A DNA stretch of 64,000 bases, taken from a virus (lineage: Duplodnaviria; Caudoviricetes). The notes beneath the pieces are model-generated. The model was not told where the DNA came from and made no database searches. It worked only from the letters and a program-made list of their open reading frames with translations. The translations under genes and the position numbers were made by a program. Where the stretch lies: positions 192,001 through 256,000 of IMG/VR virus record IMGVR_UViG_3300032233_002382, one strand, 5' to 3'. This document shows, in pieces, positions 29,929 through 62,215 of this stretch. The first letter of the stretch is position 1, and each line of letters opens with the position of its first letter.

Positions 29929-32900
29929 CTAGGTGCGGATGCGAATGCTAAGGGTCACGACGATGTACTCGAGTGGGAACACCGGAACGTAAATGGCTTC
30001 CACGCGAAGAATGGTCGGGTCCTTCTCATCGACGGTAGCCGCAATCCCAGCGACTTTGTTAACAATCTGAGCCGAAATTAGATTGTTAAAGAGTGCAGTT
30101 ACGGCCTTCTCGACCTGGCCAGGGATGGAGGGGAGGAACTTCTGGCCGATGAACGGGTCGAGAGTAGCGCGGATCTGCTGCTGCACGTACTGGATTGTCA
30201 GCGTCACAGACGGCGTACGGGTGATCACTGAATTCGTGTTAGTGGTTAGACCGTGGCGAACTCGTAGATTTCCGAGATCGAGCTGCTCGACTACCGTCAC
30301 GCCCGATACCGCGACCTGATTTGCAGTGGTCGGGTCTAGATTACGACCGACCTGCTTGAAGCCCGTAATGCTTCGGCGGGTCCAAGGGGTAGCGACATCC
30401 ACGGACGGGGCACAAGTCGAAGCGGCTAGAGCAGCCGCCATATAAACGCCGCTTACCAAACGGTCGGAGACGTTACCGAGATTATCGGAAACGGTCACGA
30501 CGTAGGAGTCCGGGTAGACAACAGACATTAAGCTGCTGTTGATACCCTTTGCAATTGCCTGAACTCCCGTTGGGGTAGTGCCAACCTCAACGCCGACGAG
30601 ACCGGTGCGCTCACCCTCTTGGCGCGGAGTGCTCATGAAGGTGACGTGGTTTGTCAGATAAGCGGCGACCGGTGGGGCTCCGGTGAGTGGAACAATGATG
30701 TCAGGCTTTATGTTTCCACTGATCGGCTTCTTAAGTTCGTCGATAGCAGCTATGTAAGCGGCGTTAGAAGCGACCGGAGAATTCGGAAGCTTTAACACCT
30801 GCTTCAGACCTACGACAACCGCGCCATTGAGAATGGCTAGACGAGCCGCTAAGCTCAGCGGGTTATCAGGGGTCGGATCGCCGAAGTTCGCCTGAATCTT
30901 CTTCAGGTCCGTGTAGAGAGCTGTCGATAGATCTGACTTAAGGTACTCGTAGCTGATGTAGTAGTAATCACCAACGTTCGGTACATTGCCGGTGCTCTTA
31001 TAAGTCTTGACCAGGCCGGTTGTACCGGCGGTGATGCCGACCGTGTTGCTCACGGTCAGCTCAACACCGTTCACCGCGAGAGTCGGAACAGCCGAATCAC
31101 AAAGGAACGTGCTGCTGCAGACTAACGTGAAGCTGCCGCCTGAAGTGTAATCCCCTGTCTGCGGAGCTAAGATCGTGAACCGGAGTCCAGTACGACCGTC
31201 GGTATACGTCTGGCCAACTTGACCAACACCAGAGGAACCAGCATTCAGGTCGGAACTCGACACTGCATAACCGGAGATAGCGTCCTCTCCTTCATCCGCA
31301 GTGTCATTACCAATGCCGATACCGGTATCATCGATGAACACCGTGTCACTAATGGCATCGCTGAAGCTCAGCGAGGAGACGATTCCCGCAGACTTCGAGT
31401 TGATCTTCAGGAACGTGCCCTGACCCGTTACAGTCTCTGGGTAAGCGACTGCTAAACCAGAGAAAGTGGCATCAGCATTCAAAGCCGCTGCGATCTTGCT
31501 GGCGTCGGGTTGAACCCGATTCGTGGTCTTGGCAGTAAGCCCTAAGACTGACAGAGCAGTACTTCCAGAGGCCGCATTCTTAACCGTAACAGCAGACTTC
31601 ACGGTGTTAGTCAGTGAGCTAATTACCACCTTAGCCAAAGTCGGATCAGCGACGTCAGCGTTAGCGCCTGCACCAACGGTAGCTGGCAGACCAGATGTAC
31701 TGGTTAGAGCCACTGAGGTGTTCGTCGTATCATTTCGACCATGGACGTGGAACGGAGTGATTTGCTCATCACGGTGAGCGTTGAAAGCTCCGTTAGTGCT
31801 GAGGTAAGCAAGCGCCTCAGTTAAAGCGATGGTGCTTTCGAACAGAGGACCATTAGATCCGGACGCGTCACTTACTGTGACCGGATTCGTCGTGTCTGAA
31901 ACCACGTGAACCGAAGCCTGGCTTAAGTGGCTATTGAATTTCGCCTTTATCTGGTTCGCTAACGCAGCTCCAGTCGATAAGCTGTCGGTAGTCACCGTGA
32001 GAGCAGCAAGGCTTATCGAGTTCGTCGAATCCGCCACGAAGTGGCTATTCGTGTTTACACGGTGAGCTTCGTATGCTGAACGGATATCATTCAGGAGGTA
32101 GAAGATAGCATCCTGGCTCTTGATGGTTCCGCCGCTTGTATAAGCGCCCACAAACGTTGATCCAACCAGGTCAAACGTGGTCAGACCAGTCGACGTAATC
32201 TGGAATGTCCCATTGGCGTTGGTCGTAAGACCACCAGTTCCAACTACGCCCGAGATATTCACCCAACGACCGGTGGCTAAACCATGGTTGGCGGTCGTCG
32301 TAACTGCGATTAGTCCAGAGCCATTGTTAGCCATTGAGCTAACAGCGAACGGAGTTAAAGTACCTACATCGAATGCCGTATTGCTTGTGGAAACGACATT
32401 GGTCGAATCATCGATACCGTGGGCACCTAACTGTAGCAAGTGCGAGTTGTACTTGGTCTGGATCAAGTGTGCTAACGACAGAGCGCTCGATAAATCAGTC
32501 GGAGTCGAAAAAGCAAAACCGTTAGCGGTGTCGCTCGTGTTGTGGACGCCGGACTGAGTAAGGTGTGCGTTGATCTTAGTGGCTAGTTCATTAAGCAGTG
32601 TTATCGACGTGCTTAGGTTAGTCGCGACAGGCGAACTTATCGTGTTGGTAGTATCAGCGTTCGCGTGTAAGGTCGCACTGGTGCGGTGATTTGAATTGTA
32701 GTTCGTACGCAGCTCGTTTGCTAGAACCACGAGCGATGCCTCTAAAGCGGCGACGCTGGAGGAAGCTGCGAAAGCGGCAGTCGCAGAGTATGAATCGTTA
32801 ATGGCGTCTACCACCTGCTGGGCAGTAACGCTCGATCCAAGAGGCAACGTGGTCTGCCAGTCCTGACCATCGACGTTCAGGGCAAGACCATTATTAAGAG

Positions 32901-35310
32901 CAGTAATCTTGAAGTTACCAGTGTTGCTCGACACAACCACAGCGTTTTGATTCAGGGCATCGGACGAACCGTAGCTTGAGGCTATAGTTAGACCTAAAGC
33001 GGTCGAAGCGTCAGAGTCACCGGGGTTTACTGGCATCACCAGAACCCGAGCAACTAGACCGCCGCCGATACCGGACGGCAAAGAGCCGGAGTTACGGCCC
33101 TTGATCTTTAGGATAGCCTCCGAACCATATAGGACTACTGAAGCCAGGTTATTAGGAGCGGTCGACGCGAAAGTGCCGGTTCCGTCGGTGTGAACCGTAA
33201 TATCGGCGTCAATAGCGGAGTTTATGGCAGAAGCGACGGAAGTTAGAGACGTGAGCGAAGCTAAGTTCACGTCAATTTCCACACCGTCAACATCTAACAT
33301 TAGATGGTCAGTGCTTAGCAGCGCCAAGCTCGCATCGATGGGCTGTCCTAGTAGTACAGCAGGGAATGAGACTCCAAGGTCCGTAGCAGTGCTTATTCCA
33401 TCGATCACGGCAGTTCCGAAAATTCTAGAGGCCGTGTAGATGTTATATGGGCCAGCAAGAGCAGAAGTAATAGAAGCGTGGGTAGCAGGCTCAAGCGCGT
33501 TATTGAAAGTGATAGTAACGGTCTCAGCAACCGGATTGCCGTCACCAGAATAGAGAGCGTCAGGGTTTGTCTCAACGCCAGACGGCCAATTGATCGTCTG
33601 CGATAACCCCGTGACTACACCGAACCGCACGTTATAAAGCGGGAGAGCCGTGTTGCGGCTCGAGACCATCGAGTACTGACCGATTCCGGAGGGTCCTGGA
33701 GTGATAACAGACAGCGTGTAGGTGACGTTATCCTGGATCCGGTTATAGTAATAGGTCGCGTAAACTTTGTAATCAGCCGGAACAGGATTCCGGAGTGTAA
33801 TCGTGCGGTCGATTACCTCGAGAACTTCAACTGCTCCCTTGGCAAACGCATCACGCCACGTCTTGCCAACGTACGCCACAACGAGATTCGGATTGGTGGT
33901 ACGAAGATCCTGGCGACCATTCGTGACCTGGTTAAAATAGGAGACAGACAGAGGAGTGTCACGACCATTGCCAGTGGTCGGCACATTGGCCAAGCGCCAC
34001 TTGCTCAGGTCGTTCGTCGAAACCAGGCTAAGCTCTTCGCCGAATATACGGTTATCGACGAGCATGCCAGACATCTGTACACTGTCGAAGGCTACATTGC
34101 CGATAGTGCTGCCGGTGGTGATGTTATAGGCAGCACCCCAGTAGATCTTCGACTGATCAGCGTCGTTCAATACAACGTAGTCAGCGCCCTGCTTATAAGA
34201 GGCGTCCCCAGGGCCGATGCCAACGTTGAGAACATTTGTGATATTACTGTTCGGCAGATAATCGAACGTGTCCTGCCACGGGTTGTACCAGTACTCAACG
34301 CTCACGGTGGAACCAGCTACCGGGGCGAATGGTAGAACAACAGAGCGGGTGGCACCGTCGACAGACACCGGAGTCACCGGCACGTTATCGACGAGCACAC
34401 GAACATCAGCCACGCTCGTGGTCGTACGGCCCTCATCTGAACCATCGACAATTGGTCCATTGAACACGACGAAGGTCTTATTTCGGGTGGTCGTCTGAAG
34501 AGCATTGAATCCAAAAGCGCCGTTCGCGCTACCATTACCGATCTTAAGCTGACCGGTAGTGGTAAGCCCTAAGTGAGAAAGACCTTCGGCGTCAGTGCTA
34601 GCATAAGCAGTTAGACCGGTTATGCCCTTCGAATTGATTTCGGATACGAGCTGGCTAACAGTGCGAGCGCTACCGGCTGTTAGAACGACCGATGTAACGG
34701 TCGCACTATCGTTGATGAAGAGCTCGAGTGTGTTGGTGGAAGAACCGATGCTGTAAGTAGTCGCAACAGGAGCCACGATGACGGCGGAGCCAGGCGAAAC
34801 CTGTTCAGAAACGTCGTCCGTCACTCGAGTGTCTTTGCGACGGAAGTAGTAGTTCACCGTCACGAAATCCGACTCAGAAGGAGGGACGATGAGCGAAATG
34901 ATGCCGTGGGCACCGTCGACCGCACCAACCGCAACCGGCTCACCGTTGACCGACACAGACACAAACTGAGTGTCGTTGGTCGGGCTGGCATTTAATCCAT
35001 TGCTCGAGACAATGGGATAATTCCTGACGCGAAAACTAAACTTATTCCCATCGGTCGGACCTAGAGTCGGGTTCGCGAAGGTACCAGACACCACCCAATG
35101 GGATGATACGTCTTCTCCGAAAATAGGCGTATTGGCTTGGCTACTCGAACCACGAATCATCTCGATATTAGACTGGAGAATACTTTCCTTACCAGTCCCG
35201 ATGAAAACGGGGATTCTAAGTCCGGCTATCAGATTTCCGACGACTGGCTCGATTAGAGTAGTCGTATAAACACCGGGAGGAGCATAAGTGGAAAAAGGTC
35301 CGATAGCCAT
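29929..35310 (-). CDS. contractile tail sheath protein (1793 aa)
   Basis: YAPPGVYT N-terminus; C-terminal VRHGLTT...I...L..FIGQK...V...E.DPT...VEA.YVPVFPLEYIVVT sheath signature; AGGAG SD. Confidence 0.92.
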   Translation of the reverse strand: MAIGPFSTYAPPGVYTTTLIEPVVGNLIAGLRIPVFIGTGKESILQSNIEMIRGSSSQANTPIFGEDVSSHWVVSGTFANPTLGPTDGNKFSFRVRNYPIVSSNGLNASPTNDTQFVSVSVNGEPVAVGAVDGAHGIISLIVPPSESDFVTVNYYFRRKDTRVTDDVSEQVSPGSAVIVAPVATTYSIGSSTNTLELFINDSATVTSVVLTAGSARTVSQLVSEINSKGITGLTAYASTDAEGLSHLGLTTTGQLKIGNGSANGAFGFNALQTTTRNKTFVVFNGPIVDGSDEGRTTTSVADVRVLVDNVPVTPVSVDGATRSVVLPFAPVAGSTVSVEYWYNPWQDTFDYLPNSNITNVLNVGIGPGDASYKQGADYVVLNDADQSKIYWGAAYNITTGSTIGNVAFDSVQMSGMLVDNRIFGEELSLVSTNDLSKWRLANVPTTGNGRDTPLSVSYFNQVTNGRQDLRTTNPNLVVAYVGKTWRDAFAKGAVEVLEVIDRTITLRNPVPADYKVYATYYYNRIQDNVTYTLSVITPGPSGIGQYSMVSSRNTALPLYNVRFGVVTGLSQTINWPSGVETNPDALYSGDGNPVAETVTITFNNALEPATHASITSALAGPYNIYTASRIFGTAVIDGISTATDLGVSFPAVLLGQPIDASLALLSTDHLMLDVDGVEIDVNLASLTSLTSVASAINSAIDADITVHTDGTGTFASTAPNNLASVVLYGSEAILKIKGRNSGSLPSGIGGGLVARVLVMPVNPGDSDASTALGLTIASSYGSSDALNQNAVVVSSNTGNFKITALNNGLALNVDGQDWQTTLPLGSSVTAQQVVDAINDSYSATAAFAASSSVAALEASLVVLANELRTNYNSNHRTSATLHANADTTNTISSPVATNLSTSITLLNELATKINAHLTQSGVHNTSDTANGFAFSTPTDLSSALSLAHLIQTKYNSHLLQLGAHGIDDSTNVVSTSNTAFDVGTLTPFAVSSMANNGSGLIAVTTTANHGLATGRWVNISGVVGTGGLTTNANGTFQITSTGLTTFDLVGSTFVGAYTSGGTIKSQDAIFYLLNDIRSAYEAHRVNTNSHFVADSTNSISLAALTVTTDSLSTGAALANQIKAKFNSHLSQASVHVVSDTTNPVTVSDASGSNGPLFESTIALTEALAYLSTNGAFNAHRDEQITPFHVHGRNDTTNTSVALTSTSGLPATVGAGANADVADPTLAKVVISSLTNTVKSAVTVKNAASGSTALSVLGLTAKTTNRVQPDASKIAAALNADATFSGLAVAYPETVTGQGTFLKINSKSAGIVSSLSFSDAISDTVFIDDTGIGIGNDTADEGEDAISGYAVSSSDLNAGSSGVGQVGQTYTDGRTGLRFTILAPQTGDYTSGGSFTLVCSSTFLCDSAVPTLAVNGVELTVSNTVGITAGTTGLVKTYKSTGNVPNVGDYYYISYEYLKSDLSTALYTDLKKIQANFGDPTPDNPLSLAARLAILNGAVVVGLKQVLKLPNSPVASNAAYIAAIDELKKPISGNIKPDIIVPLTGAPPVAAYLTNHVTFMSTPRQEGERTGLVGVEVGTTPTGVQAIAKGINSSLMSVVYPDSYVVTVSDNLGNVSDRLVSGVYMAAALAASTCAPSVDVATPWTRRSITGFKQVGRNLDPTTANQVAVSGVTVVEQLDLGNLRVRHGLTTNTNSVITRTPSVTLTIQYVQQQIRATLDPFIGQKFLPSIPGQVEKAVTALFNNLISAQIVNKVAGIAATVDEKDPTILRVEAIYVPVFPLEYIVVTLSIRIRT

Positions 35311-35329
35311 TATTTTCTCCTGATTCGAA

Positions 35330-35388
35330 GTATCTAACGAATCTAGGTCTTGTCTGGTCTAAATATACTTAAGTCTATGTCTGATCTA
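35330..35388 (-). repeat. eight AGA(C/T) units at about 5-nt period in the sheath 5' leader
   Basis: minus strand TAGAT CAGAC ATAGAC ttaagtatatt TAGAC CAGAC AAGAC CTAGAT tcgt TAGAT. Confidence 0.65.
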
Positions 35389-35489
35389 CAGCTCTCATCA
35401 AACATAGGGAGGCTATTGAAAGCCGACCAACCCAAGTATAAGGAGATCCGACCTAGTGTCACATTAAAGCGGAAAAATAAAATTTCAAA

Positions 35490-35927
35490 TCATTCGTCAG
35501 ATTTTATAGATTTCTTAAAGGTCCCAATCCCATCTTCTCGAGTCTTTAACACAGATTTATCTACAGCAGAATAAGAACCGTCTGAATTGCTTGCAATCGC
35601 ATTGGTATTCAGTGACTTTCGAGCTTCATTTATACTCTTCTGCCGTTCCTTAATCATACCCCATTTTTTCTCGGAGCTTCTTGCAACCGCTTTATCTAGA
35701 GTCGGGTAATCAAGATCATGTACACCCGAGTTGCCATGTACTCCACTAGTCCCTCTTACATCACCTTTAAAGGAAAAACCAAATACCGAACCATGAAGCC
35801 GGGGCGCCAATAGCTTGCACTGAGGACATGGATGTGACTCAGAATATTGCTTTATCTCATCACGACTCATAAGTAGTTCTTCGAAATCAGCTTCGCACGT
35901 GGCACATCGATATTCATAGATTGGCAT
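35490..35927 (-). CDS. FmdB-family zinc-ribbon protein; ATG start 35927
   Basis: MPIYEYRCATC...FE...CPQC signature. Confidence 0.8.
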   Translation of the reverse strand: MPIYEYRCATCEADFEELLMSRDEIKQYSESHPCPQCKLLAPRLHGSVFGFSFKGDVRGTSGVHGNSGVHDLDYPTLDKAVARSSEKKWGMIKERQKSINEARKSLNTNAIASNSDGSYSAVDKSVLKTREDGIGTFKKSIKSDE

Positions 35928-35942
35928 AAGTAACAATACGAA

Positions 35943-37139
35943 TCAAATGATCCGTTCATAACCAATCGGCTTGCCGATATTGTAAGAGAACCTACCTATC
36001 GGATCCATTTGGACTAAATCGACCACTGCCGACCCGTCCAGGTTACCTTTAGACAGTTCCTCTGAGGCGGATACCATTTCCGCCCTTGAAACGACAACTG
36101 GAAGCGGCACATATATGAACCAGTCTACGCGAAATCCTAGAGAGATATTACTATCGTAGTAATATTCGTCGGTTTCAGGGTTATATACATCTTCATTCTC
36201 TCCACCAGGAGAGAGGTTAATGAGTTCAAGCCCTTCAAAACCCAGGGTATTCTGACGTTCAAGTATCTTCATCACTACGTAATCAGAAAGCTTTTCACGG
36301 TCCTCAGAATCCTTAGAGAAGGCTATTAGATCGAAGTTTACCTCGAATCGTCCACCGTAGACATTCGCAACCTCAGTTCTTTCATCCGTCACAACGACCG
36401 CGAATTTATCATATAACTGGGAGCGATCTCCAAATGCTATTACGATGCCAGGAAGAATCGAGACGTTAAACTCTTCTTGCTTAAAATCAAAAGGCCCGAG
36501 TTCAGGCATTTTATATCGATAGTCAGCGGTAATATACGCACCTTCAGGCTGGTCCTTAAGGAATGTTATCAGGCCTGTCGATTCGTCTACTAGAAAATCA
36601 ACGTCGCGAATTAAAGCCTTTCGGTCATTTAACCAAAGTCTAATGCTATTTGGGTATATGTTATCGTGAGTAAGCTGAGCTTCACCGAAAGCCGAATAGT
36701 CGAACACGATCAAAGGTTCACCCGACACTGTTAAGTCCGGATAGACCACTACTTGACCGGGAATGTTCTTAGCTACATCCGGAATCGCAATCACTTCAAA
36801 CGTATAAACACCCGGAGCCGTGGGAAAAGAGCCACCGGGGGAAATAGAGCCCAAAATGTTATTGTTTTCTCTAATCCATTCAACCGTGGTGTTCGGAGAA
36901 TCAGAGACAGGCACTTGCATGCAAAAGGACTTCAAACGTCCCATAAAATTGTCGGCGGATAGGACAACCCTATCCGCCGACGTTCCATCAACTATTATAC
37001 CGCGAGAAGGACGTTCTTCAAATGAGTACTTATTTTGTACGTTTTGACTGTCTTCGCGATAGCGGGGGTGTTGATATAGTATCTCCCGTAATTCCTTGAT
37101 TATCCTACGCTTAGTAGCATTTGATAACCAAGAAATCAT
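35943..37139 (-). CDS. putative tail terminator/tail completion protein with inserted Ig-like domain
   Basis: position upstream of sheath; KYSFEERP.RGIIV and V.F.L..F.KD..DREKL.D motifs. Confidence 0.55.
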   Translation of the reverse strand: MISWLSNATKRRIIKELREILYQHPRYREDSQNVQNKYSFEERPSRGIIVDGTSADRVVLSADNFMGRLKSFCMQVPVSDSPNTTVEWIRENNNILGSISPGGSFPTAPGVYTFEVIAIPDVAKNIPGQVVVYPDLTVSGEPLIVFDYSAFGEAQLTHDNIYPNSIRLWLNDRKALIRDVDFLVDESTGLITFLKDQPEGAYITADYRYKMPELGPFDFKQEEFNVSILPGIVIAFGDRSQLYDKFAVVVTDERTEVANVYGGRFEVNFDLIAFSKDSEDREKLSDYVVMKILERQNTLGFEGLELINLSPGGENEDVYNPETDEYYYDSNISLGFRVDWFIYVPLPVVVSRAEMVSASEELSKGNLDGSAVVDLVQMDPIGRFSYNIGKPIGYERII

Positions 37140-37152
37140 GGTCTACACCCCG

Positions 37153-38154
37153 TTATTCCTCCATTTGAGCATACACAAGAAGCCCAGTACCAACGGCGGT
37201 CATCGGATCGGTGGCATGCCGAACTTCCGAAATCGGAATCGGAAATTTCGCCCGATGCTTCTCGAAACGCTCCGCGAATTTGGCCACAAATCCCTTAGCC
37301 AGACTTGTTCCGCCAGAGATAACGATAGGGATGGGTTTCGGGATCGTTATTTCATTCTTGCTCTTTAGGAACTGCGATATTATGCTCGAAATCGCATAAT
37401 CAATCAAACTTTCGATATAAACCGTTAGAGCCTCGGTCTCTCGGTTATTAGGCGACGCGATATCGACACCTGATTCTTTTAGAGCACAGATTTTAGCCGC
37501 TGTAGTCCCAATAGCTTTAGCGGCTCCCGAGTCGATCCAGTCACCACCACGACCAACGCTGAATTCAAGCGCCGACATCGCATTGTATGAAAGGCAAACG
37601 TTCGTCATACCGGAACCGAAGCTAATACCAAGACCGCTGAAATTCGAGCTGGCGCACTCCGAATAAATTACGGCAAGAGCCTCATTCACAGGCTCCGCAT
37701 TGTATCCGAGTTCACCGAGAATCTTACCCAGCACCTTGCTATGATAAGTTATGTCGGAGCCTGTAACGTCGATAGCGGATGCAGGAACTGAGTAGCAACA
37801 ACGCTCGTTAGGCTTCTTAGGATCGCCTAAAATCGTCTTCATCATAAGACCAATAACTTGTTGGGCATCGATCTCACCCGAAGCGACAATACCTCCAGCC
37901 ATGGGACGACGGGCTTCGCGATTAAATAAATTGGCAGTATCTAAAGCCGCGTCACCTACGACTAACAGTTTCCCGTCCATTTCGACATAATTCGTATTAC
38001 TGATTTTAAGCATCCGCTTGTTTTCGGGCGGAAGATCAATGAATGCATTCCGGATGCGTGCGGTAGTGACGTTTGATCCGGACTTTCTGGCGCTAACGAA
38101 ATTCATCGTGCCAACGTCCAGACCGACTCCAAAAGACTCTGCAGGGTTTGACAT
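37153..38154 (-). CDS. actin-fold ATPase, volactin-like
   Basis: Phosphate1 GLDVGTMN, Connect1 EPVNEALAVIY, Phosphate2 GISFGSGMTNV, GRGGDWID, Adenosine ISGGTS, Connect2 DPMTAVGTG; AGGAGG SD. Confidence 0.9.
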   Translation of the reverse strand: MSNPAESFGVGLDVGTMNFVSARKSGSNVTTARIRNAFIDLPPENKRMLKISNTNYVEMDGKLLVVGDAALDTANLFNREARRPMAGGIVASGEIDAQQVIGLMMKTILGDPKKPNERCCYSVPASAIDVTGSDITYHSKVLGKILGELGYNAEPVNEALAVIYSECASSNFSGLGISFGSGMTNVCLSYNAMSALEFSVGRGGDWIDSGAAKAIGTTAAKICALKESGVDIASPNNRETEALTVYIESLIDYAISSIISQFLKSKNEITIPKPIPIVISGGTSLAKGFVAKFAERFEKHRAKFPIPISEVRHATDPMTAVGTGLLVYAQMEE

Positions 38155-38188
38155 ATCGCCTCCTAAACGAATAATACCGAACGAAGGT

Positions 38189-38749
38189 CTATTTTCGCTT
38201 ACGAAGCGATTTTAAAACATCAGTAGCTGAATCGATGTCGCTTCTGACGCTACTATCAGTTTGAATGTTTATCTTGGTTTCTATACCTTTTGGAACAATG
38301 TTTGATGGTATGAAAACAGGATCTGCGACGGTCGACTGATAGGATCCGACATTGGCCGCACTTAAGTGGGCGGGCAAATTAGAAGGCGTCGGAGATGTTG
38401 GAATATTCGATAAAGCGTCAGCGAGTTTCGAAATATTACTGTTAAGGGCATCTAGCTTATTATCGATAGATTTTAACAAAGTTACCTGAGGTTCTTCTTC
38501 GACTACCGGCTCTTCCTCAGGCGGTTTTTGATACTCAACGACCTTAGAATTGGCTGTTTTGGTAAATGACTTATCGCTATTAAACAACCTCAATGATATC
38601 ATGTGTCGCACCTGCTTCGCTTGGAGCGAACTGTCATATAAATGTCTAGGTATTACCGCACTATCCCCATATTTCTCAAGCCTCACACCAATATCAGAAA
38701 GATAAATGAGCTCTTGTGATTTATTTGTAATTAAATAACTAGTCATCAT
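38189..38749 (-). CDS. putative actin partner/adaptor (186 aa)
   Basis: N-terminal ITN.S...IYL.DI motif, Pro/Glu linkers, coiled coil, basic amphipathic C-terminus; directly upstream of actin. Confidence 0.55.
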   Translation of the reverse strand: MMTSYLITNKSQELIYLSDIGVRLEKYGDSAVIPRHLYDSSLQAKQVRHMISLRLFNSDKSFTKTANSKVVEYQKPPEEEPVVEEEPQVTLLKSIDNKLDALNSNISKLADALSNIPTSPTPSNLPAHLSAANVGSYQSTVADPVFIPSNIVPKGIETKINIQTDSSVRSDIDSATDVLKSLRKRK

Positions 38750-39450
38750 TTCTCCAGAATCCCCATTATGGCCGGAGTGAATTCTTCGGCAATAAGCTGA
38801 TTTATTTGGTCGATAAATTTTGACATTATACCTTGAAAATCCCCCTTAGGATGCTTTTGAACGAATTTTGTGTTCCTTACAGTTCTTTGGACCGAAACAC
38901 GTAATTTCTTATCCACTACTTCCATTCCTCGAGGAGCAGTCGCTTCGAGTTCATGCTCTACGTACCTCTGACCGGAGTTCTTAACATTCGAATTACGTGT
39001 GCGGTCTGATGAAATTTTCCGGGCATCTCTCGGCATTTTTAACTTATCTTGTAAGGGCTTTCTAGCGTCATACCGACCGTTGATTCTTTCAGGCCGATTA
39101 TTTCGACCTATGAAGTATGACTTCACATATCCTTTCGCTTGCGATTTCGATTGTACTAAAGACGCTTTCTTCTTATCTTTAGCTGAGGTTTCGGGTCGGT
39201 TGTACCCCCTTGGAGCTTCGTCCGTGGTTGAATCATCACTAAGGCCTTCGGCATCGATGTTTATCTCGAACATTACTGCGTCATCTGCAAGATGGGCATA
39301 AACTTGGTAATCTTTTAAGTATTCAGAGTCGGAGAAGCCAGACTCATCCAATATCTTCTTTAAAGCTAAGAGACCCTTGACCGCAATCGGCTCATAAATT
39401 GACAGCATAATATCATCAAACGATGTCGGAAGAATGAGTTCAGGCTTCAT
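38746..39450 (-). CDS. neck-region protein (234 aa), basic central region
   Basis: coupled ORF in neck module. Confidence 0.5.
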   Translation of the reverse strand: MKPELILPTSFDDIMLSIYEPIAVKGLLALKKILDESGFSDSEYLKDYQVYAHLADDAVMFEINIDAEGLSDDSTTDEAPRGYNRPETSAKDKKKASLVQSKSQAKGYVKSYFIGRNNRPERINGRYDARKPLQDKLKMPRDARKISSDRTRNSNVKNSGQRYVEHELEATAPRGMEVVDKKLRVSVQRTVRNTKFVQKHPKGDFQGIMSKFIDQINQLIAEEFTPAIMGILEK

Positions 39451-40763
39451 CTTCTATAAGTATTTTCGAATACAGGGGTTCGACCACGAATTTCCCGCTC
39501 ATCCGGAATCGCCTGGCGTTCCGTCGTCATAGGGGTTGCGCTGCCTTCACCCGGAATTATATATCGAGTCTGCGGGATGACTAAGCTCGAAGTATCCAAC
39601 ACCGGAACCTTATACCGAATATCCGATTCATCTAAGTGAGAAATAGAAAAATGTTGTTGCAATTGCATCCCACGATTCGTTGGCATACGAACTGGACCTA
39701 GTCCATATCGATCACCATTCAATTTCACAATAAAGTCTCTCTGAGATAGGAGCGGACTTGGGCCGGTCCAAGTTTCATAATTATGCGTTAGACTTCTACC
39801 ACGGTTGCTTTGAGCAATCGATCGGTCCGCATCGTCCGGAGCAATAATTAAGTCGTATGGACCATCATAACCACCGATAATGCCCGTACCAAAACAAGTT
39901 AGACAGTCTGAAGCTGGCTGCTTATTTGTAAATGAATAACAACCGCACTTTGGTCCTACATATTTACGAATAAAGCATTTTACGCGTTCACCGCTTTGAT
40001 CTAGTATGAACTTATTCCGACGAATTGCTTCCCGCCAAATCCAGTCTAACTGTTCGATAGCGTTAGAATTAGTCGTGGTCGCTTTCTTGAGTTCAGTCTC
40101 GATAAGAGCACCATTCTCGTCATAAGCAATTGTAGTCACGCGATAAAACACGCGCTGATATAAGACAGTCTTGCTAACGGCATTAAAATATCTATACGAG
40201 GCCAATACGACCGAATCTAAGTTCGGCACGACGGACGGAACCATCTTTTGACTTATCACGTCAAAAGTCGGATTTGTTTCGATCACCACTTCGCCAGTTT
40301 GAGAAACAACCGATCTCACTTTAGCTTGACGACCGTCAATAGTGACATACATATTCGCGTCAATATCATCGGAATTGATAGCAGGCTGCAAGTAAAGCGG
40401 AGTGTTAACCGTTTTAAAGATCCAACGTCCCAGAGAGTCCGTCGGACCAACAGTGAGCCAATTTTTAGATACTTCTTCCTTAAAAACAGCTTTTACCTGG
40501 GTTCGATCCCGATAGAAATTCGCCTGAATTGGCGTGGCATTTAGTTTAATATAAGGACCGAATTGGGAATCAAAACTTCGATAAACGTTCACCCCGATTA
40601 CATTAAATTTCGTGTTCGCAGATAACTCTGCCGGATTAGACCACCAAATATCTACAGTATACTTATCAAATGCAGAAGCACAAGTAACCGTCAGAGGAGA
40701 CAGAGGTCTCTCCGGGTTAATGATCTCTAACGGTGATATAGGCCTATCGGGAGGTGACGGCAT
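39447..40763 (-). CDS. neck/head-closure protein with FnIII-like N-terminus and CxC..CxxC zinc motif
   Basis: KCGCY...SDCLTCFGTGIIGGY...P.L..RDFIV...G.RY motifs typical of myovirus head-closure proteins. Confidence 0.65.
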   Translation of the reverse strand: MPSPPDRPISPLEIINPERPLSPLTVTCASAFDKYTVDIWWSNPAELSANTKFNVIGVNVYRSFDSQFGPYIKLNATPIQANFYRDRTQVKAVFKEEVSKNWLTVGPTDSLGRWIFKTVNTPLYLQPAINSDDIDANMYVTIDGRQAKVRSVVSQTGEVVIETNPTFDVISQKMVPSVVPNLDSVVLASYRYFNAVSKTVLYQRVFYRVTTIAYDENGALIETELKKATTTNSNAIEQLDWIWREAIRRNKFILDQSGERVKCFIRKYVGPKCGCYSFTNKQPASDCLTCFGTGIIGGYDGPYDLIIAPDDADRSIAQSNRGRSLTHNYETWTGPSPLLSQRDFIVKLNGDRYGLGPVRMPTNRGMQLQQHFSISHLDESDIRYKVPVLDTSSLVIPQTRYIIPGEGSATPMTTERQAIPDEREIRGRTPVFENTYRR

Positions 40764-40792
40764 CTTATTTTAGCCGTCGCAATAAGGCCCGA

Positions 40793-41071
40793 TTACTGGG
40801 CAGTATTATCTTCTTCTTTGAACTGCACAACTACTTCGCCGTTAGGACCGACGTTCACATCCTTGACGTCGGCAGGCTTAATTTTATTGTCTGACAGAAG
40901 ATCATCTATGATCTTCTGACGAGACAGATACATCGAATCGATGGCCTCGAGCATCTTTCGGGCTTTGAGCGTCAGTACAACATGCTCAGAAGACCAGTGA
41001 CTTATAGACGCCTCGAACTGCGTCAACTGGGCGAGAGATTCTTTAGAAAGCTGAAGTTTAGCAGTGGTCAT
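40793..41071 (-). CDS. small coiled-coil hypothetical protein
   Basis: ORF with GTATGGT-N5-ATG start. Confidence 0.6.
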   Translation of the reverse strand: MTTAKLQLSKESLAQLTQFEASISHWSSEHVVLTLKARKMLEAIDSMYLSRQKIIDDLLSDNKIKPADVKDVNVGPNGEVVVQFKEEDNTAQ

Positions 41072-41101
41072 GATATACCATACCGAACAAATATCTTAGT
41101 G

Positions 41102-41740
41102 TTAGTCGTCTGAGGACGACTCGTCATCCGAATCATCATCCGAATCGTCAGACTCATCGAGCAGGTCTTCTAGAGATTCCGCTGAACCAGAAGACTCATC
41201 CATTGAAGATTCTAGGTCATCCGATTCGTTGTCATCGGAGTTCTCAGAATAATCTACCGACCCTTCTAAGTCTAACTCACTGCTTTCATCCACTTGATCC
41301 CCATAATCTTCGGAGAGTTCACCGGCATCAGAAGATTTCGATCCTTCTTCCTCTGAGGTATCGGTATCAGAACCATCACCTAGTCCAAATTCATCCGCCC
41401 CTAGATCGCTCTCATCTATTAAAGAACAGTCTATCTTAATGGGCAACACTTTTACTTCGGTTTTGTTTAACCCAAGGTCATCGGATACTACTTTCATACT
41501 CGATTCAATCGCACTTTGAAGCTCGGCTTTGAGCTTGGAGACAAGATCAGCTTTAGACACCTGTCCATCAAAAGTAGCATTTAACAACAATTCGACATTA
41601 CAAGCATATTCGGTAGTGGCAGAGGTAATATCCAATTCCGAATCGACATCATCGCCTACTTCTAATTCGTCCTGCGACTCGTCAATATCTTCCTCATACT
41701 GAGCTGCAATGCGACTAGCGATTCGATTTAAATGACGCAT
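41102..41740 (-). CDS. very acidic protein with RIASRIA leader; likely ATG start 41740
   Basis: D/E/S-rich C-terminal half; GTATAAT-N6-ATG. Confidence 0.6.
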   Translation of the reverse strand: MRHLNRIASRIAAQYEEDIDESQDELEVGDDVDSELDITSATTEYACNVELLLNATFDGQVSKADLVSKLKAELQSAIESSMKVVSDDLGLNKTEVKVLPIKIDCSLIDESDLGADEFGLGDGSDTDTSEEEGSKSSDAGELSEDYGDQVDESSELDLEGSVDYSENSDDNESDDLESSMDESSGSAESLEDLLDESDDSDDDSDDESSSDD

Positions 41741-42894: not shown

Positions 42895-44379
42895 CTATAG
42901 GTCTACGAGCGATTCTAAACGATTTATTTGACGATTGAGTTCGTTCAGTCGAACATGCAGTATTTCACGGTCTTCATCGTTCTCAGGGATTTCATACTCC
43001 AATACTTCCTTTTCTTTAATAGCATCCTCGTATTGAGATCTATAAATCGAGTCCATCTGCTCCGTCAGCGACTGGATTTGATCAGCGTGCTGCTTGCGAT
43101 CCGAACCGTATAGGCTGTACATCTTCTTCTTAAGTGATTGTATCTCGGGTGTGTCGAAGGCATCTGGTGTAACATATTTCTTTTTGAATTCGAAGTCGCG
43201 AATTCTTTCCTGTTTCTTCTTAATACTTCTATCTTTAAGAGATCTACGTTTTTTAATAGAGGTCTCTAACTCAGGTCTGATATCTATGTCGTGTTGCTGC
43301 CCAACGTATTTAAGCATCAACATCAGCTTAGAAACCGCTGTGACCAACGCTTTTACATCAGCGGCACTAGTGTGACTTGCATCTTTATTTAGTATACCCA
43401 ATGCCGAGTTTACGTAGTCTAAATTATAGTAGTTTGGTTTACCGTTGAGCAGTTTAGAAAAACGATCGACAATATCGCGATCGTTGACTTTATCGATAAC
43501 AGAATCTACGTACACCTGCATGAACTCTTGAGAATCTAGGTTGTCACATTTCTTAAGGGCAGAATCATTGATACCGTAAATCCTGCAACGACGCGAAATG
43601 AACTCACGATCGAACGGAGCATTATGTGCTACTAAAACGACTTTATAACTGGACGAAATGCGACGCACAAATTCAATGAATTCTTCTAAAAGATCTGACT
43701 CGGGCTTAAAGTCCGGAGGCATCTCACTGGTGGGAATTTCAATGGCTGGGCCTAATTCACTCTCAAAATCTTTGGTCGGTTTACGTTCTAAAGGCTTGTA
43801 ATTGAGAGGCTTAGGCGGTAACGAGATATTGCGCTCGCTAACGAATCGGTCTAGTGGATAACGATTAAATTCTAAAATGGCTCTGACAGTCGGACCACCC
43901 CTGGCGGTATCAAGATTCTTTATCGTATCTTCTGTTAAATCCGCAGTTCCGTGAATATGGCCGAGGTATTCGGGTTTATATCCACCATGAGTCGAAATGA
44001 ACTCTTGTTCTTCCTCTTTAGTACGTTTTTCGATGAAATCTTTTAAACCAACAGCTACAGCTGAGACTTGAGTAATTTGCACGTTTGGGAGTTGGTTTGG
44101 TAAACCCGTAGTCTCAGTGTCATAGAATACGAATGCATGATTCGTAAATTTGCTAAAAATCGAGTCAAAAAGATCTGCGGCCTTTACCTTCCCGGAGTCA
44201 TCGACTGGAAGTTCATAAGCACTCATATGTGAACCCGAAGAAATCTTTAAGCTAATTGCTCGTAAATCTGCACGTGGTAAGGAGGCAATACTAGTGCCAT
44301 AATCGGGTCGTTCCATTATATGACCGACCCATTCTCGATTGCTAGAAAGGCTATCAGAGAGTTTGTTGATTTTTAACAT
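42895..44379 (-). CDS. DEDDh 3'-5' exonuclease (DnaQ-like); likely ATG start 44379
   Basis: ExoI YDTETTGL, ExoII AHNAPFD, ExoIII HTSAADV. Confidence 0.85.
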   Translation of the reverse strand: MLKINKLSDSLSSNREWVGHIMERPDYGTSIASLPRADLRAISLKISSGSHMSAYELPVDDSGKVKAADLFDSIFSKFTNHAFVFYDTETTGLPNQLPNVQITQVSAVAVGLKDFIEKRTKEEEQEFISTHGGYKPEYLGHIHGTADLTEDTIKNLDTARGGPTVRAILEFNRYPLDRFVSERNISLPPKPLNYKPLERKPTKDFESELGPAIEIPTSEMPPDFKPESDLLEEFIEFVRRISSSYKVVLVAHNAPFDREFISRRCRIYGINDSALKKCDNLDSQEFMQVYVDSVIDKVNDRDIVDRFSKLLNGKPNYYNLDYVNSALGILNKDASHTSAADVKALVTAVSKLMLMLKYVGQQHDIDIRPELETSIKKRRSLKDRSIKKKQERIRDFEFKKKYVTPDAFDTPEIQSLKKKMYSLYGSDRKQHADQIQSLTEQMDSIYRSQYEDAIKEKEVLEYEIPENDEDREILHVRLNELNRQINRLESLVDL

Positions 44380-45116
44380 CCGCAACTCCCTGCGCACGAA
44401 TTATACACCCCGCATAAACCAGGGTAACAAGCAGGTTTACAATGACACCCACAATTGTGACCCACGTTTGAGACGTTGGCAACAGGTTGCGGACAAAAAA
44501 CATTAAACTTCATAGAAGGAGCGGATGTAATGCCTGTGAAGGGGTCCGTATAATTCCATTCAATCGAATACGTTCCAGAAAGACCGTTAACAATCCATAT
44601 CACGAAATAATGGCCTACACCAGCGCGAGAGGCCACCTGATAATCGACCACAACGCAGCCATCAGGGCGAAGTATTCGGTAACGAACATTATCCGCATCC
44701 ACTAACTCACAATATTCATTCTTTATGTAGAGAGCAAGGTCATCTACGCTTGTCACATATCCCACAACATACGTCTTAGAAGATGGATCAGGAAGAAGAG
44801 ACGCAGGTTTCACCTGACCATCGACAATCGTAAACTGACCAGACTGAGCTACATAAAAATTCGTCGAATAAATCTCAGATCCATTAACAAACCACTTTGC
44901 TACATAGGTCCCAGGATTTACAGTTCGGTACGGAGCGTAGTACACACCATCATAATAGTTTATACTTGATAGATCCCGACCACTCACAAGGGTACAGTTA
45001 GTGTCGAATATAGAATATGTTACTTTTAAAGCGTCTAAAGTTCGACCTTCTAAATCGCGAATGATAATCGAAAGATCACCACGACTTAAATCAGTATTTA
45101 CATTAAAGAAATTCAT
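44373..45116 (-). CDS. tandem Ig-like domain protein with Cys-rich tail
   Basis: two G.Y.A..W repeats resembling the N-terminus of 41969..42880; C-terminal CGCHCKPACYPGLC. Confidence 0.55.
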   Translation of the reverse strand: MNFFNVNTDLSRGDLSIIIRDLEGRTLDALKVTYSIFDTNCTLVSGRDLSSINYYDGVYYAPYRTVNPGTYVAKWFVNGSEIYSTNFYVAQSGQFTIVDGQVKPASLLPDPSSKTYVVGYVTSVDDLALYIKNEYCELVDADNVRYRILRPDGCVVVDYQVASRAGVGHYFVIWIVNGLSGTYSIEWNYTDPFTGITSAPSMKFNVFCPQPVANVSNVGHNCGCHCKPACYPGLCGVYNSCAGSCGC

Positions 45117-61801: not shown

Positions 61802-62215
61802 TTATCCTAGTCTAATGAGGAAGGTTAAGGCGCCACCTGTGGTATTGGTGATGGTAGTAGTAGTAAACGCCGCGTTATGAACGGCGTTGAAGGTACCGGT
61901 AGCATCGACCCAAGTCGGACCTACCGCTTTAACGACGGAAACGTCGGGCGGCAAACCGAAATTGTGGTTTAAAACCACATTCGCTCCGCCAGCTAGGGTG
62001 ACGTTATCTTCTAAGGTAATGATGCCATTATCGCGCCACTTACGTAAGTCGCCCTTGAATGCGGAACGAATTACTTCGGTGGTATTCGGTAAATAGACCG
62101 ACTGACCAGGATTAAGATAACGGTCCTCACCCTGACGACCTTCGGTCTGGGCCTGAGCTATGAACCGAAGATCGTGAAGATATATACGGATTGTAGAAAC
62201 GTTTGTGATTTTCAT
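61802..62215 (-). CDS. putative decoration protein with shared N-terminal anchor domain
   Basis: ITNVS..IYLHDL...YLNPGQSVYLP...S...G.L. Confidence 0.55.
   Translation of the reverse strand: MKITNVSTIRIYLHDLRFIAQAQTEGRQGEDRYLNPGQSVYLPNTTEVIRSAFKGDLRKWRDNGIITLEDNVTLAGGANVVLNHNFGLPPDVSVVKAVGPTWVDATGTFNAVHNAAFTTTTITNTTGGALTFLIRLG

What the first reader, a model, noticed from the sequence alone, without database searches (positions are those of the whole stretch)
37153..38749. Volactin-like actin plus putative capsid-docking adaptor inside the virion neck module
Seen in sequence: 37153..38154 has all actin-fold ATP-binding motifs intact, sits between neck and tail-terminator genes, and has its own SD and a -10-like box (GTATTAT). 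Knowledge: its motif string (GLDVGTMN; VGD.AL..AN.FN.E.RRPM..GI; PNER..YS.PA; EP.NE..AVIYSE; NF.GLG.SFG.GMTNVCL; RGGDWID; GGTS..GF) matches, from memory, the haloarchaeal shape actin volactin rather than MreB, FtsA or ParM. Well-studied jumbo-phage cytoskeletons are tubulin (PhuZ). Seen: the upstream 186-aa gene starts YLITNKSQELIYLSDIG, resembling MKITNVSTIRIYLHDLR of putative decoration protein 61802..62215, then has a linker, a coiled coil and a basic amphipathic tail (DIDSATDVLKSLRKRK). Inference: a two-gene system in which the adaptor docks on particles through the decoration-type domain and on an actin filament through its tail, moving or positioning virions during assembly.
Basis: partly seen in the sequence, partly recalled or inferred. 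Interest (0 to 1): 0.9.

Follow-up and report, generated by a model that had tools for sequence, protein, structure and literature searches.

The report
Huge-phage volactin actin with adaptor
A giant uncultured bacteriophage carries, between its neck and tail genes, a highly conserved actin-like protein of the archaeal "volactin" family and a small partner whose tail is predicted to plug into that actin, which suggests these phages build their own actin filaments late in infection.

Summary
The gene is real. ORF 37153-38154 (-) is a full-length member of Pfam Volactin (264 bits against a cut-off of 35). It is 44% identical to Haloferax volactin. Its high-confidence model is closest to the filament formers MamK, MreB and BeeR, not to chaperones or sugar kinases. 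The window lies in a 308-kb virus record.

The block neck-like gene, basic 234-aa gene, 186-aa gene, actin, tail-terminator-like gene, Zn-ribbon, giant sheath recurs in every related huge-phage contig examined. It holds in four actin clades, down to 44% identity. The actin is the best conserved protein of the block.

The 186-aa partner evolves fast but keeps a C-terminal motif (FIPS, then an amphipathic basic helix). A complex prediction places that helix in the actin's IA/IIA cleft, the site ParR uses on ParM (score 0.71, best control 0.00).

Movement of virions is untested.

This scan has found and followed up the same phage family on other DNA. I found it in no paper I could search. Verdict: a new variant of a known kind (actin plus adaptor), with unknown cargo.

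The parts
37153..38154 (-). Volactin-family actin-like ATPase, 333 aa
   Evidence: Pfam PF25216, 263.7 bits, full length. 44% identity, E 1e-92, to Haloferax gibbonsii volactin. AF2 pLDDT 95.2; closest solved folds are MamK, MreB and BeeR.
38155..38188 (-). 34-nt spacer with AGGAGG Shine-Dalgarno (38164-38159) before the actin start; GTATTAT at 38177-38171
   Evidence: Read directly. No sigma-70-type site was called on this strand here.
38189..38749 (-). Adaptor candidate (P186), 186 aa
   Evidence: A positional orthologue lies upstream of the actin in all related loci. It is fast evolving, at 22-33% identity.
38576..38749 (-). P186 N-terminal domain, residues 1-58, small alpha/beta unit of unknown partner
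   Evidence: AF2 pLDDT 86-96 by 10-residue block. Conserved motif Y.ITN..SL.IEDIGV.L..RG. Only weak fold matches: uL30-like Z about 5, YqbF Z 3.8, Bacillus phage G gp158 E 4e-3.
38408..38482 (-). P186 central helix, residues 90-114, possible oligomerisation element
   Evidence: AF2 helix 90-114. Present in the orthologues. Oligomerisation is an inference.
38192..38311 (-). P186 actin-binding tail, residues 147-186: FIPS motif, strand, amphipathic basic helix
   Evidence: Conserved DP.FIPS.I.P and D.D.S..ALK.LRKK motifs. Complex prediction ipSAE 0.71 against controls at 0.00. The helix lies in the cleft formed by actin residues 137-149, 164-172 and 315-331.
38746..39450 (-). Conserved basic 234-aa protein with DAR-rich middle. 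Its stop overlaps the P186 start and its start overlaps the 438-aa gene's stop.
   Evidence: Coordinates. Conserved in position at 26-37% identity. Alignment A7. No family or PDB match.
39447..40763 (-). 438-aa neck / head-completion-like protein with Cys cluster
   Evidence: Atlas structure neighbours include T4_neck-protein and Phage_HCP clusters; this is a lead only. 53-65% identical in relatives.
35943..37139 (-). 398-aa tail-terminator / tail-completion-like protein
   Evidence: Atlas: SP10_terminator (features 0.91), neck terminator, gp17 tail completion, T4 gp15; a lead only. Weak DUF2460 and TIGR02217 hits.
35490..35936 (-). 148-aa zinc-ribbon protein
   Evidence: Pfam Zn_ribbon_8, E 4e-8. 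Conserved in position.
29929..35310 (-). Giant tail sheath, 1793 aa
   Evidence: phrog_2839 tail sheath, E 2.6e-33, on residues 1445-1792. E1_FCCH-like insert at 999-1064.

Best explanation
The two genes encode a phage-borne actin cytoskeleton module. The 333-aa protein is a volactin-family actin that most likely polymerises with ATP into dynamic filaments, as its haloarchaeal relative does. The 186-aa protein is its dedicated adaptor. Its last 40 or so residues wrap over subdomain I of the actin and put an amphipathic helix into the cleft between subdomains IA and IIA, which is free only on monomers and at one filament end. This is how ParR couples cargo to ParM. The adaptor's small N-terminal domain and central helix would hold a phage-specific cargo. 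Both genes sit in the late neck/tail-terminator operon of a large huge-phage lineage. The cargo is therefore most likely a virion assembly intermediate or the assembly site, so that filaments position or move particles late in infection.

Shown: family membership, fold, conservation of the pair and of the operon position.
Predicted by model: the binding mode.
Inferred: polymerisation, the cargo and the biological role.
For: Family and fold:
- Pfam Volactin at 263.7 bits, full length.
- 44% identity, E 1e-92, to a Haloferax volactin, against 22 bits to an MreB.
- In the tree the family is separated from MreB by a long, fully supported branch.
- AF2 model pLDDT 95.2, pTM 0.92.
- Top Foldseek matches are the MamK filament (TMq 0.72), MreB, BeeR filament, crenactin and actin; EutJ comes only at rank 26.
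- The family profile hits MamK at 4.7e-15, BeeR at 1.7e-10 and MreB at 6e-8.
- Volactin forms dynamic, ParM-like filaments that touch the membrane by their tips (PMC10869688).

Conservation:
- 2357 homologues at E<=0.001 among the 6286 candidates scored; the 120 best listed are 63-84% identical, on contigs up to 439 kb.
- One copy in each of three complete 393-436 kb genomes.
- The same gene order recurs in all 17 IMG/VR loci, in LR745208.1, in three mis-binned MAG contigs and in two further clades at 44-45% actin identity.
- The actin is the best conserved gene of the block: 62-74%, against 43-55% for the sheath.
- Inteins sit in the phosphate-2 motif of close relatives.

Adaptor:
- The C-terminal motifs are conserved although overall identity is 22-33%.
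- The same motif ends a membrane-helix protein upstream of a distant phage volactin (L114).
- Complex prediction: ipSAE 0.71, best of 3 controls 0.00; the mark was reached by 58 of 80 solved complexes and 2 of 110 mismatched pairs. The runs agree in at least 83% of contacts and the partner's pLDDT is at least 61.

Operon: genes are overlapped or closely spaced on one strand, with an SD before the actin.
Against: - No experiment or transcript data exist for this phage, and polymerisation is only extrapolated from a relative at 44% identity.
- The complex score is the model's own confidence, was obtained with my own alignments, and may echo solved helix-in-cleft complexes such as ParM with the ParR peptide.
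- A helix in that cleft fits a monomer-sequestering inhibitor as well as an end-binding adaptor.
- The adaptor's N-domain has no recognisable relative, so the cargo is unknown.
- Gene position in a structural operon is only circumstantial evidence for a role in morphogenesis.
- Distant phage volactins (L003, L114) sit in non-structural contexts.
- Predicted interface residues of the actin are not more conserved than the rest (0.71 against 0.77).
Confidence: 0.5

Rival explanations
1. ParMRC-like DNA positioning. The actin and adaptor move or segregate phage genomes (replicating DNA, or a plasmid-prophage state), and the adaptor binds DNA rather than particles.
For: The predicted binding site is the one ParR uses on ParM. 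Volactin dynamics resemble ParM (PMC10869688). Some family members are fused to a ParB HTH domain (P0181). Distant phage volactins lie near replication genes such as DnaB (L114).
Against: There are no direct-repeat (centromere-like) arrays anywhere in 35300-41200. The adaptor's N-domain is a small alpha/beta unit with no DNA-binding family hit. The genes lie inside the late neck/tail operon in four clades. The gene order is adaptor then actin, the reverse of parM-parR.
Confidence: 0.12
2. Non-polymerising assembly ATPase. The actin-fold protein works as a chaperone or assembly factor for neck, terminator or giant-sheath assembly, and the 186-aa protein is a client or co-factor.
For: The position between neck-like and terminator-like genes, next to a 1793-aa sheath, is conserved. 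The ASKHA fold also serves Hsp70-type chaperones. Phosphate-2 lacks the usual Asp.
Against: The nearest sequence and fold relatives are all filament formers: MamK, MreB, BeeR and crenactin. No Hsp70 or sugar-kinase family hit. The same phosphate-2 variant occurs in haloarchaeal volactin, which polymerises in vivo. The protein has no substrate-binding domain beyond the 333-aa actin core.
Confidence: 0.13
3. The 186-aa protein is a polymerisation regulator, either a monomer-sequestering or a capping factor, and not a cargo adaptor. It would keep the actin off until the right moment.
For: The predicted tail covers subdomain I and fills the IA/IIA cleft that longitudinal contacts need, much as WH2/thymosin-type peptides do on actin (established knowledge).
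Against: A confidently folded, conserved N-terminal domain and a central helix are not needed for sequestration. In a distant phage the same tail is attached to a membrane helix (L114). In haloarchaea the upstream gene is a four-TM CdpA-like protein (PMC12126565). Both point to anchoring.
Confidence: 0.12
4. Host manipulation. The phage actin remodels host cell shape, size or division to make room for very large virions.
For: Volactin affects cell shape in Haloferax (PMC10869688). MreB-like folds act in cell-shape control.
Against: The phage protein shows no significant similarity to bacterial MreB (22 bits). It brings its own phage-specific adaptor. Its place in the virion operon is conserved, and it is not among early-type genes.
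Confidence: 0.08

Closest known systems
Volactin (VolA, HVO_2015) of Haloferax volcanii with its neighbour HVO_2016 (CdpA-like membrane protein); Pfam PF25216
   Same: Same Pfam family, full length, 44% identity to a Haloferax orthologue, and the same S-x-G-x-G phosphate-2 and RGGDWID motifs. In both cases the gene directly upstream on the same strand ends in a short amphipathic basic helix. The adjacency of HVO_2016 is noted in PMC12126565.
   Different: It is carried by a virus and sits in a neck/tail operon. The upstream partner is a soluble 186-aa protein with a small alpha/beta N-domain, not a four-TM CdpA-like protein. The haloarchaeal genes form one shallow clade, separate from the phage clades. 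The cell-shape role does not transfer.
ParMRC plasmid segregation (ParM actin, ParR adaptor, parC centromere)
   Same: An actin-like ATPase plus an adjacent small adaptor gene. The adaptor's C-terminal helix is predicted in the IA/IIA cleft, which is ParR's site on ParM (the ParR site is established knowledge).
   Different: A different actin family: ParM/StbA models do not hit. The adaptor lies upstream rather than downstream. No ribbon-helix-helix domain and no centromere repeats. The context is structural-gene, not a plasmid partition locus.
MamK, the magnetosome actin (PDB 5LJV, 5LJW, 5JYG)
   Same: The closest solved relative by profile (E 4.7e-15) and by fold (TMq 0.72, filament form). 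It is also an actin that positions large cargo.
   Different: Only 19-20% identity. It is a different Pfam family and a cellular organelle system with other partners.
PhuZ tubulin spindle of nucleus-forming jumbo phages (Chimalliviridae)
   Same: A phage-encoded cytoskeletal polymer in jumbo phages that positions the replication compartment and delivers capsids (PMC13282480).
   Different: It is tubulin, not actin, and is not encoded in the neck/tail operon. No tubulin-family gene was found in this 308-kb record. No dedicated adaptor gene pair is known to me.
AlpC/AlpA of Corynebacterium prophage CGP3
   Same: A phage-encoded actin-like protein with its own adaptor.
   Different: AlpA links phage DNA to the filament and the system serves DNA replication or transport. 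It is a different actin family and a different genomic context.

Membership tests
Volactin (Pfam PF25216) | Score above the curated gathering cut-off, over the whole profile | tested here: met
   263.7 bits against a cut-off of 35; profile positions 3-321 of 321. 263.4 bits in the genome search.
Volactin (Pfam PF25216) | Clear full-length similarity to the founding haloarchaeal proteins, and closer to them than to MreB | tested here: met
   44% identity, E 1e-92, over 331 columns to the Haloferax gibbonsii orthologue. MreB reaches 22 bits, E 0.013. The tree separates the family from MreB with 100% support.
Volactin (Pfam PF25216) | Family-typical nucleotide-binding motifs (DxGT phosphate-1, catalytic Glu, S-x-G-x-G-M-T-N phosphate-2, GGTS adenosine motif) | tested here: met
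   All are present in the translation and invariant or nearly so in 54 members. The phosphate-2 pattern retrieved 344 relatives, including haloarchaea.
Volactin (Pfam PF25216) | Assembles into dynamic filaments | not testable with these tools
   Shown only for H. volcanii VolA in vivo (PMC10869688).
Polymerising actin-like proteins (MamK/MreB/ParM/actin) as opposed to ASKHA enzymes and chaperones | Four-subdomain actin fold whose nearest relatives are filament formers | tested here: met
   AF2 pLDDT 95.2. Foldseek ranks 1-25 are MamK, MreB, Mbl, BeeR and crenactin; EutJ is at rank 26. The profile search gives the same order.
ParMRC-type segregation system | Adaptor's C-terminal peptide binds the actin's IA/IIA cleft | tested here: inconclusive
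   Predicted only: ipSAE 0.71, best of 3 controls 0.00; runs agree in at least 83% of contacts; partner pLDDT at least 61. This is not a measurement.
ParMRC-type segregation system | Adaptor is a DNA-binding (ribbon-helix-helix) protein | tested here: not met
   No DNA-binding family hit. The N-domain model has four short strands, two short helices and a fifth strand, and fold searches give no RHH match.
ParMRC-type segregation system | Centromere of direct repeats next to the genes | tested here: not met
   0 direct-repeat families in 35300-41200.
   BLASTP E 0.08 over 14 residues. Profile E 0.87 among 1242 ORFs. The Atlas model of 61802-62215 is an Ig-like sandwich over residues 17-137, against a 58-residue alpha/beta unit here. 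The Atlas part is a lead only.

The most novel reading that the evidence does not exclude
Huge phages of this lineage run a virion-coupled actin motor. Copies of the 186-aa protein attach through their N-domains to a ring-shaped assembly intermediate, such as the neck or the tail terminator. The ring of C-terminal helices then holds the growing end of a volactin filament as the ParR ring holds ParM. Insertional polymerisation would push or align capsids and tails for head-tail joining or for ordered packing before lysis. The same helix-in-cleft adaptor principle, with exchangeable N-terminal anchors (membrane helix, CdpA-like protein, virion domain), would then be the general way volactins are coupled to cargo in archaea, bacteria and viruses.
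Probability: 0.2. Interest if true: 0.9.

Novelty: new variant of a known kind. Interest (0 to 1): 0.68.

Why it matters
Phage cytoskeletons are known mainly as the PhuZ tubulin of nucleus-forming jumbo phages. The 2026 review of jumbo-phage biology that I read does not mention actin homologues at all.

This actin is more conserved than the sheath. It is fixed in the neck/tail operon of a widespread huge-phage lineage with genomes up to about 440 kb, and it has its own adaptor.

If it polymerises, virion assembly in these phages is spatially organised by actin. That would be a second, independent invention of a viral cytoskeleton in bacteria.

It also bears on volactin itself. Volactin's binding factors are stated to be unknown. 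The phage adaptors give a short, testable binding motif and a predicted binding site.

The family tree also shows that most volactin diversity lies outside the haloarchaea in which the family was named.

Tried and rejected
- Single-sequence search of the actin against PDB chains found nothing related. Only the family profile reached MamK and MreB.
- PHROGs has no family for the actin or the partner. tblastn against 50,697 phage records found only two uncultured huge phages and no isolate.
- The search for homologous proteins with the 186-aa protein returned only itself. Orthologues had to be taken by position.
- The genome-contig scan with the 54-sequence alignment failed for lack of a conserved stretch. 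It was repeated with 15 closer sequences.
That row was removed and the job re-sent.
- Profiles of the 398-aa, 438-aa and 234-aa families against PDB sequences gave no usable hit.
- Fold searches of the partner model (PDB Foldseek, BFVD, VIA-align wide, Atlas) gave only weak rows: uL30-like Z about 5, YqbF Z 3.8, phage G gp158 E 4e-3. No fold assignment was made.
- 61802-62215 has no match in five related records, three of them complete.
- Conservation of the predicted interface residues showed no enrichment (0.71 against 0.77, p 0.07), which is uninformative because the comparison includes the core.
- Expression: no RNA holder is listed among the public runs. The only full holder may be the source sample.
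- Host clues: no tRNA in the window. Amidase_2 and Phage_lysozyme are absent, and SLT gives only 19.4 bits, below its cut-off. MAG labels (Methylobacter, Legionellales) are on phage contigs and may be binning artefacts. The host is left open.
- Tubulin/PhuZ: no match in the 308-kb record, which is only about 72% complete.
- Literature: 'volactin' occurs in 17 papers, and none of the 14 listed concerns a phage. There are no hits for PF25216. The jumbo-phage papers opened mention no phage actin.
Full report
**Where the window lies.** The window is bases 192001-256000 of a 307,777-bp IMG/VR virus record, estimated 72% complete. Nearly all long ORFs are on the minus strand. The stretch in question belongs to a tight run of minus-strand genes:
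- 438 aa (39447-40763);
- 234 aa (38746-39450), whose start overlaps the previous stop;
- 186 aa (38189-38749), whose start overlaps the previous stop;
- a 34-nt spacer with AGGAGG;
- 333 aa (37153-38154);
- a 13-nt spacer;
- 398 aa (35943-37139);
- a 148-aa zinc-ribbon protein;
- a 1793-aa protein.

The 1793-aa protein is a tail sheath (phrog_2839, E 2.6e-33).

**The actin.** The 333-aa protein matches Pfam PF25216 (Volactin) over the whole profile at 263.7 bits against a cut-off of 35. No MreB, ParM, actin or Hsp70 model hits, and FtsA reaches only E 0.03.

It is 44% identical (E 1e-92) to the volactin orthologue of Haloferax gibbonsii, but scores only 22 bits against an MreB. The nucleotide-binding residues are invariant across 54 diverse members. 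Phosphate-2 reads S-F-G-S-G rather than D-x-G-x-G. This is a family trait, because the same pattern retrieved 344 relatives that include the haloarchaeal chromosomes.

No solved structure is related by plain sequence. The family profile reaches MamK (4.7e-15), BeeR (1.7e-10), MreB (6e-8) and FtsA (1e-5). An AlphaFold2 model built on the 54-row alignment has pLDDT 95.2 and pTM 0.92. Its best Foldseek matches are the MamK filament (TMq 0.72), MreB, Mbl, BeeR and crenactin, with EutJ only at rank 26.

The nearest relatives are all filament formers. Volactin itself forms dynamic, ParM-like filaments that touch the membrane by their tips, and its binding factors are stated to be unknown (PMC10869688).

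**Distribution.**
- The word-index search gave 2357 homologues at E<=0.001 among the 6286 candidates scored. The best 120 are 63-84% identical, on contigs up to 439 kb.
- The exhaustive search of 50%-identity representatives gave 1075 clusters at E<=0.001 and 330 at E<=1e-30.
- Among 50,697 deposited phage records only two uncultured huge phages carry it: LR745208.1 (485 kb, 53% identity) and LR756511.1 (595 kb, 32% identity).
- Three complete relatives with terminal repeats (393-436 kb) have one copy each.

In a maximum-likelihood tree of 131 sequences rooted on four MreBs, the family is separated from MreB by a long branch with 100% support. The window falls in a clade of 15 phage sequences (99). 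The haloarchaeal volactins form a single shallow clade (99) among much more divergent metagenomic lineages.

**Synteny.** tblastn of the window's neighbours against 17 IMG/VR loci shows the same order everywhere: neck-like, 234-aa, 186-aa, actin, terminator-like, Zn-ribbon, sheath. The only variation is small variable or homing-endonuclease ORFs inserted next to the actin.

| Protein | Identity to the window's copy in the IMG/VR loci |
|---|---|
| Actin | 62-74% |
| 438-aa | 53-65% |
| 398-aa | 44-60% |
| Sheath | 43-55% |
| 234-aa | 26-37% |
| 186-aa | 22-33% |

The same block occurs in other places too:
- LR745208.1;
- contigs binned as Methylobacter, Legionellales and an uncultured bacterium;
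- two further clades whose actins are only 44-45% identical to this one (L111, L116).

The 398-aa protein resembles SP10_terminator, gp17 tail completion and T4 gp15 clusters. The 438-aa protein resembles T4 neck and head-completion clusters.

More distant phage volactins (L003, L114) are not in a structural block.

**The partner.** The alignment of positional orthologues shows these elements:
- a conserved N-terminal segment (Y.ITN..SL.IEDIGV.L..RG);
- a Pro-rich linker;
- a helix;
- a DP.FIPS.I.P motif;
- a C-terminal D.D.S..ALK.LRKK helix.

AlphaFold2 models residues 1-58 confidently (pLDDT 86-96 by 10-residue block). It places helices at 90-114 and 172-185, with the rest disordered. The C-terminal motif is present in every structural-module locus read, including the 44-45% clades.

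The motif also ends a 111-aa protein with an N-terminal membrane-type helix, directly upstream of a distant phage volactin (L114). In haloarchaea the upstream gene is a roughly 300-aa membrane protein that also ends in a short amphipathic basic helix. This is the CdpA-like HVO_2016, whose adjacency to volactin was noted in PMC12126565.

**Do they bind?** I sent the actin (54-row alignment) and residues 136-186 of the partner (14-row alignment) to complex prediction.
- The score was 0.71 with the best of three controls at 0.00.
- That mark was reached by 58 of 80 solved complexes and 2 of 110 mismatched pairs.
- The three runs agree in at least 83% of contacts, and the partner's pLDDT is at least 61.

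Partner residues 162-169 pair with the actin strand 27-34. The FIPS segment lies on actin 55-69 and 98-108. The terminal helix (172-183) lies in the cleft made by actin 137-149, 164-172 and 315-331.

By established knowledge this IA/IIA cleft is the site used by ParR on ParM and by WH2-type helices on actin. It is free only on monomers and at one filament end. The result supports binding but does not show it. My own alignments were used, and a pass may echo solved helix-in-cleft complexes.

**What is not supported.** The proposed relation of the partner's N-domain to "decoration protein" 61802-62215 fails several checks:
- It rests on 8 identities in 14 residues (E 0.08 for a single comparison).
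- A profile of the N-domain scores that protein at E 0.87 among 1242 ORFs.
- That protein has no match in five related records, three of them complete.
- Its Atlas model is an Ig-like sandwich spanning residues 17-137.

Fold searches for the partner's N-domain give only weak rows: uL30-like Z about 5, YqbF Z 3.8, Bacillus phage G gp158 E 4e-3. The cargo-binding end is therefore uncharacterised.

**Mechanism and rivals.**
- **Main reading (confidence 0.5).** A late-expressed volactin filament is coupled through the adaptor's C-terminal helix to a phage-specific cargo, most likely a virion intermediate or the assembly site.
- **ParM-like DNA positioning (0.12).** There are no repeat arrays in 35300-41200 and no DNA-binding domain in the adaptor. 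However, a ParB-HTH fusion exists elsewhere in the family.
- **Non-polymerising assembly ATPase (0.13).** All near relatives are polymers.
- **Pure regulator or sequestering role for the partner (0.12).** This is hard to square with its conserved folded N-domain and with the membrane-anchored variants.
- **Host-shape manipulation (0.08).**

**Novelty.** Actin-plus-adaptor systems and phage cytoskeletons are known kinds. A volactin-type actin fixed in the neck/tail operon of huge phages, with a helix-in-cleft adaptor, appeared in no paper I could search. Earlier notes and follow-ups of this scan describe the same family on other DNA. I treat them as leads and rest the verdict on the tests above.

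Noticed in passing
P0127 and P0129 (relatives, 63% and 52% identical); corresponds to window residues ~182-190 of 37153-38154: Close phage relatives of the actin are about 700 aa long because an intein, with a LAGLIDADG or HNH endonuclease, is inserted in the phosphate-2 motif. This fits a conserved, functionally important site in a phage gene.
   Followed up: partly
P0181, P0190, P0133 (family representatives): Other domain architectures occur in the volactin family: ParB-HTH plus volactin, volactin plus Wzz/GNVR/ParA-type BY-kinase, and a tandem double volactin.
   Followed up: no
L071:5020-5922, L044:4873-5829, L035:5059-5961 (haloarchaeal loci): The gene directly upstream of haloarchaeal volactin encodes a roughly 300-aa membrane protein that ends in a short amphipathic basic helix. 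That is the same layout as the phage adaptor. The adjacency (HVO_2016, CdpA-like) is noted in PMC12126565, but tail-to-cleft binding was not tested here.
   Followed up: partly
L114:1856-2191: In a distant phage clade, in a replication-type neighbourhood (DnaB, GIY-YIG, M15 peptidase), the gene abutting the volactin encodes a 111-aa protein. It has an N-terminal membrane-type helix and the same C-terminal motif as the window's adaptor (..TLKNLDMLKRHKK).
   Followed up: partly
window 36951-36981 (-), inside the 398-aa gene: A perfect 13-bp inverted repeat with a 5-nt gap (GTCGGCGGATAGG / CCTATCCGCCGAC), followed by a T-rich run, lies inside the coding sequence. It was also called as a terminator-like site.
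   Followed up: no
L014:4586-4900, L015:4206-4505, L019:11006-11290; also L007, L008, L016, L019, L020: Between the actin and the terminator-like gene, relatives carry variable inserts. These are a roughly 100-aa Pro-rich protein ending in an HeH/SAP-like motif (..SGTKADIATRLV..), HNH-type ORFs (..VCCWCHV..) and ORFs that begin WTIYCH. The window has none of them.
   Followed up: no
window 38746-39450 (-): The conserved 234-aa protein between the neck-like gene and the adaptor is very basic, with repeated DAR/RDAR motifs in its middle (alignment A7). It has no family or PDB match. It is translationally coupled on both sides and may be a third part of the module.
   Followed up: partly
window 29929-35310 (-), residues 999-1064: The 1793-aa tail sheath carries an E1_FCCH-like beta domain (29.4 bits against a cut-off of 29.5) among more than 1000 residues of insertions ahead of the conserved sheath C-terminus.
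   Followed up: no
window 42895-44397 (-): A 500-aa protein with an RNase_T/DEDD exonuclease-like segment (24.5 bits) and a long coiled C-terminal part sits among the structural genes.
   Followed up: no
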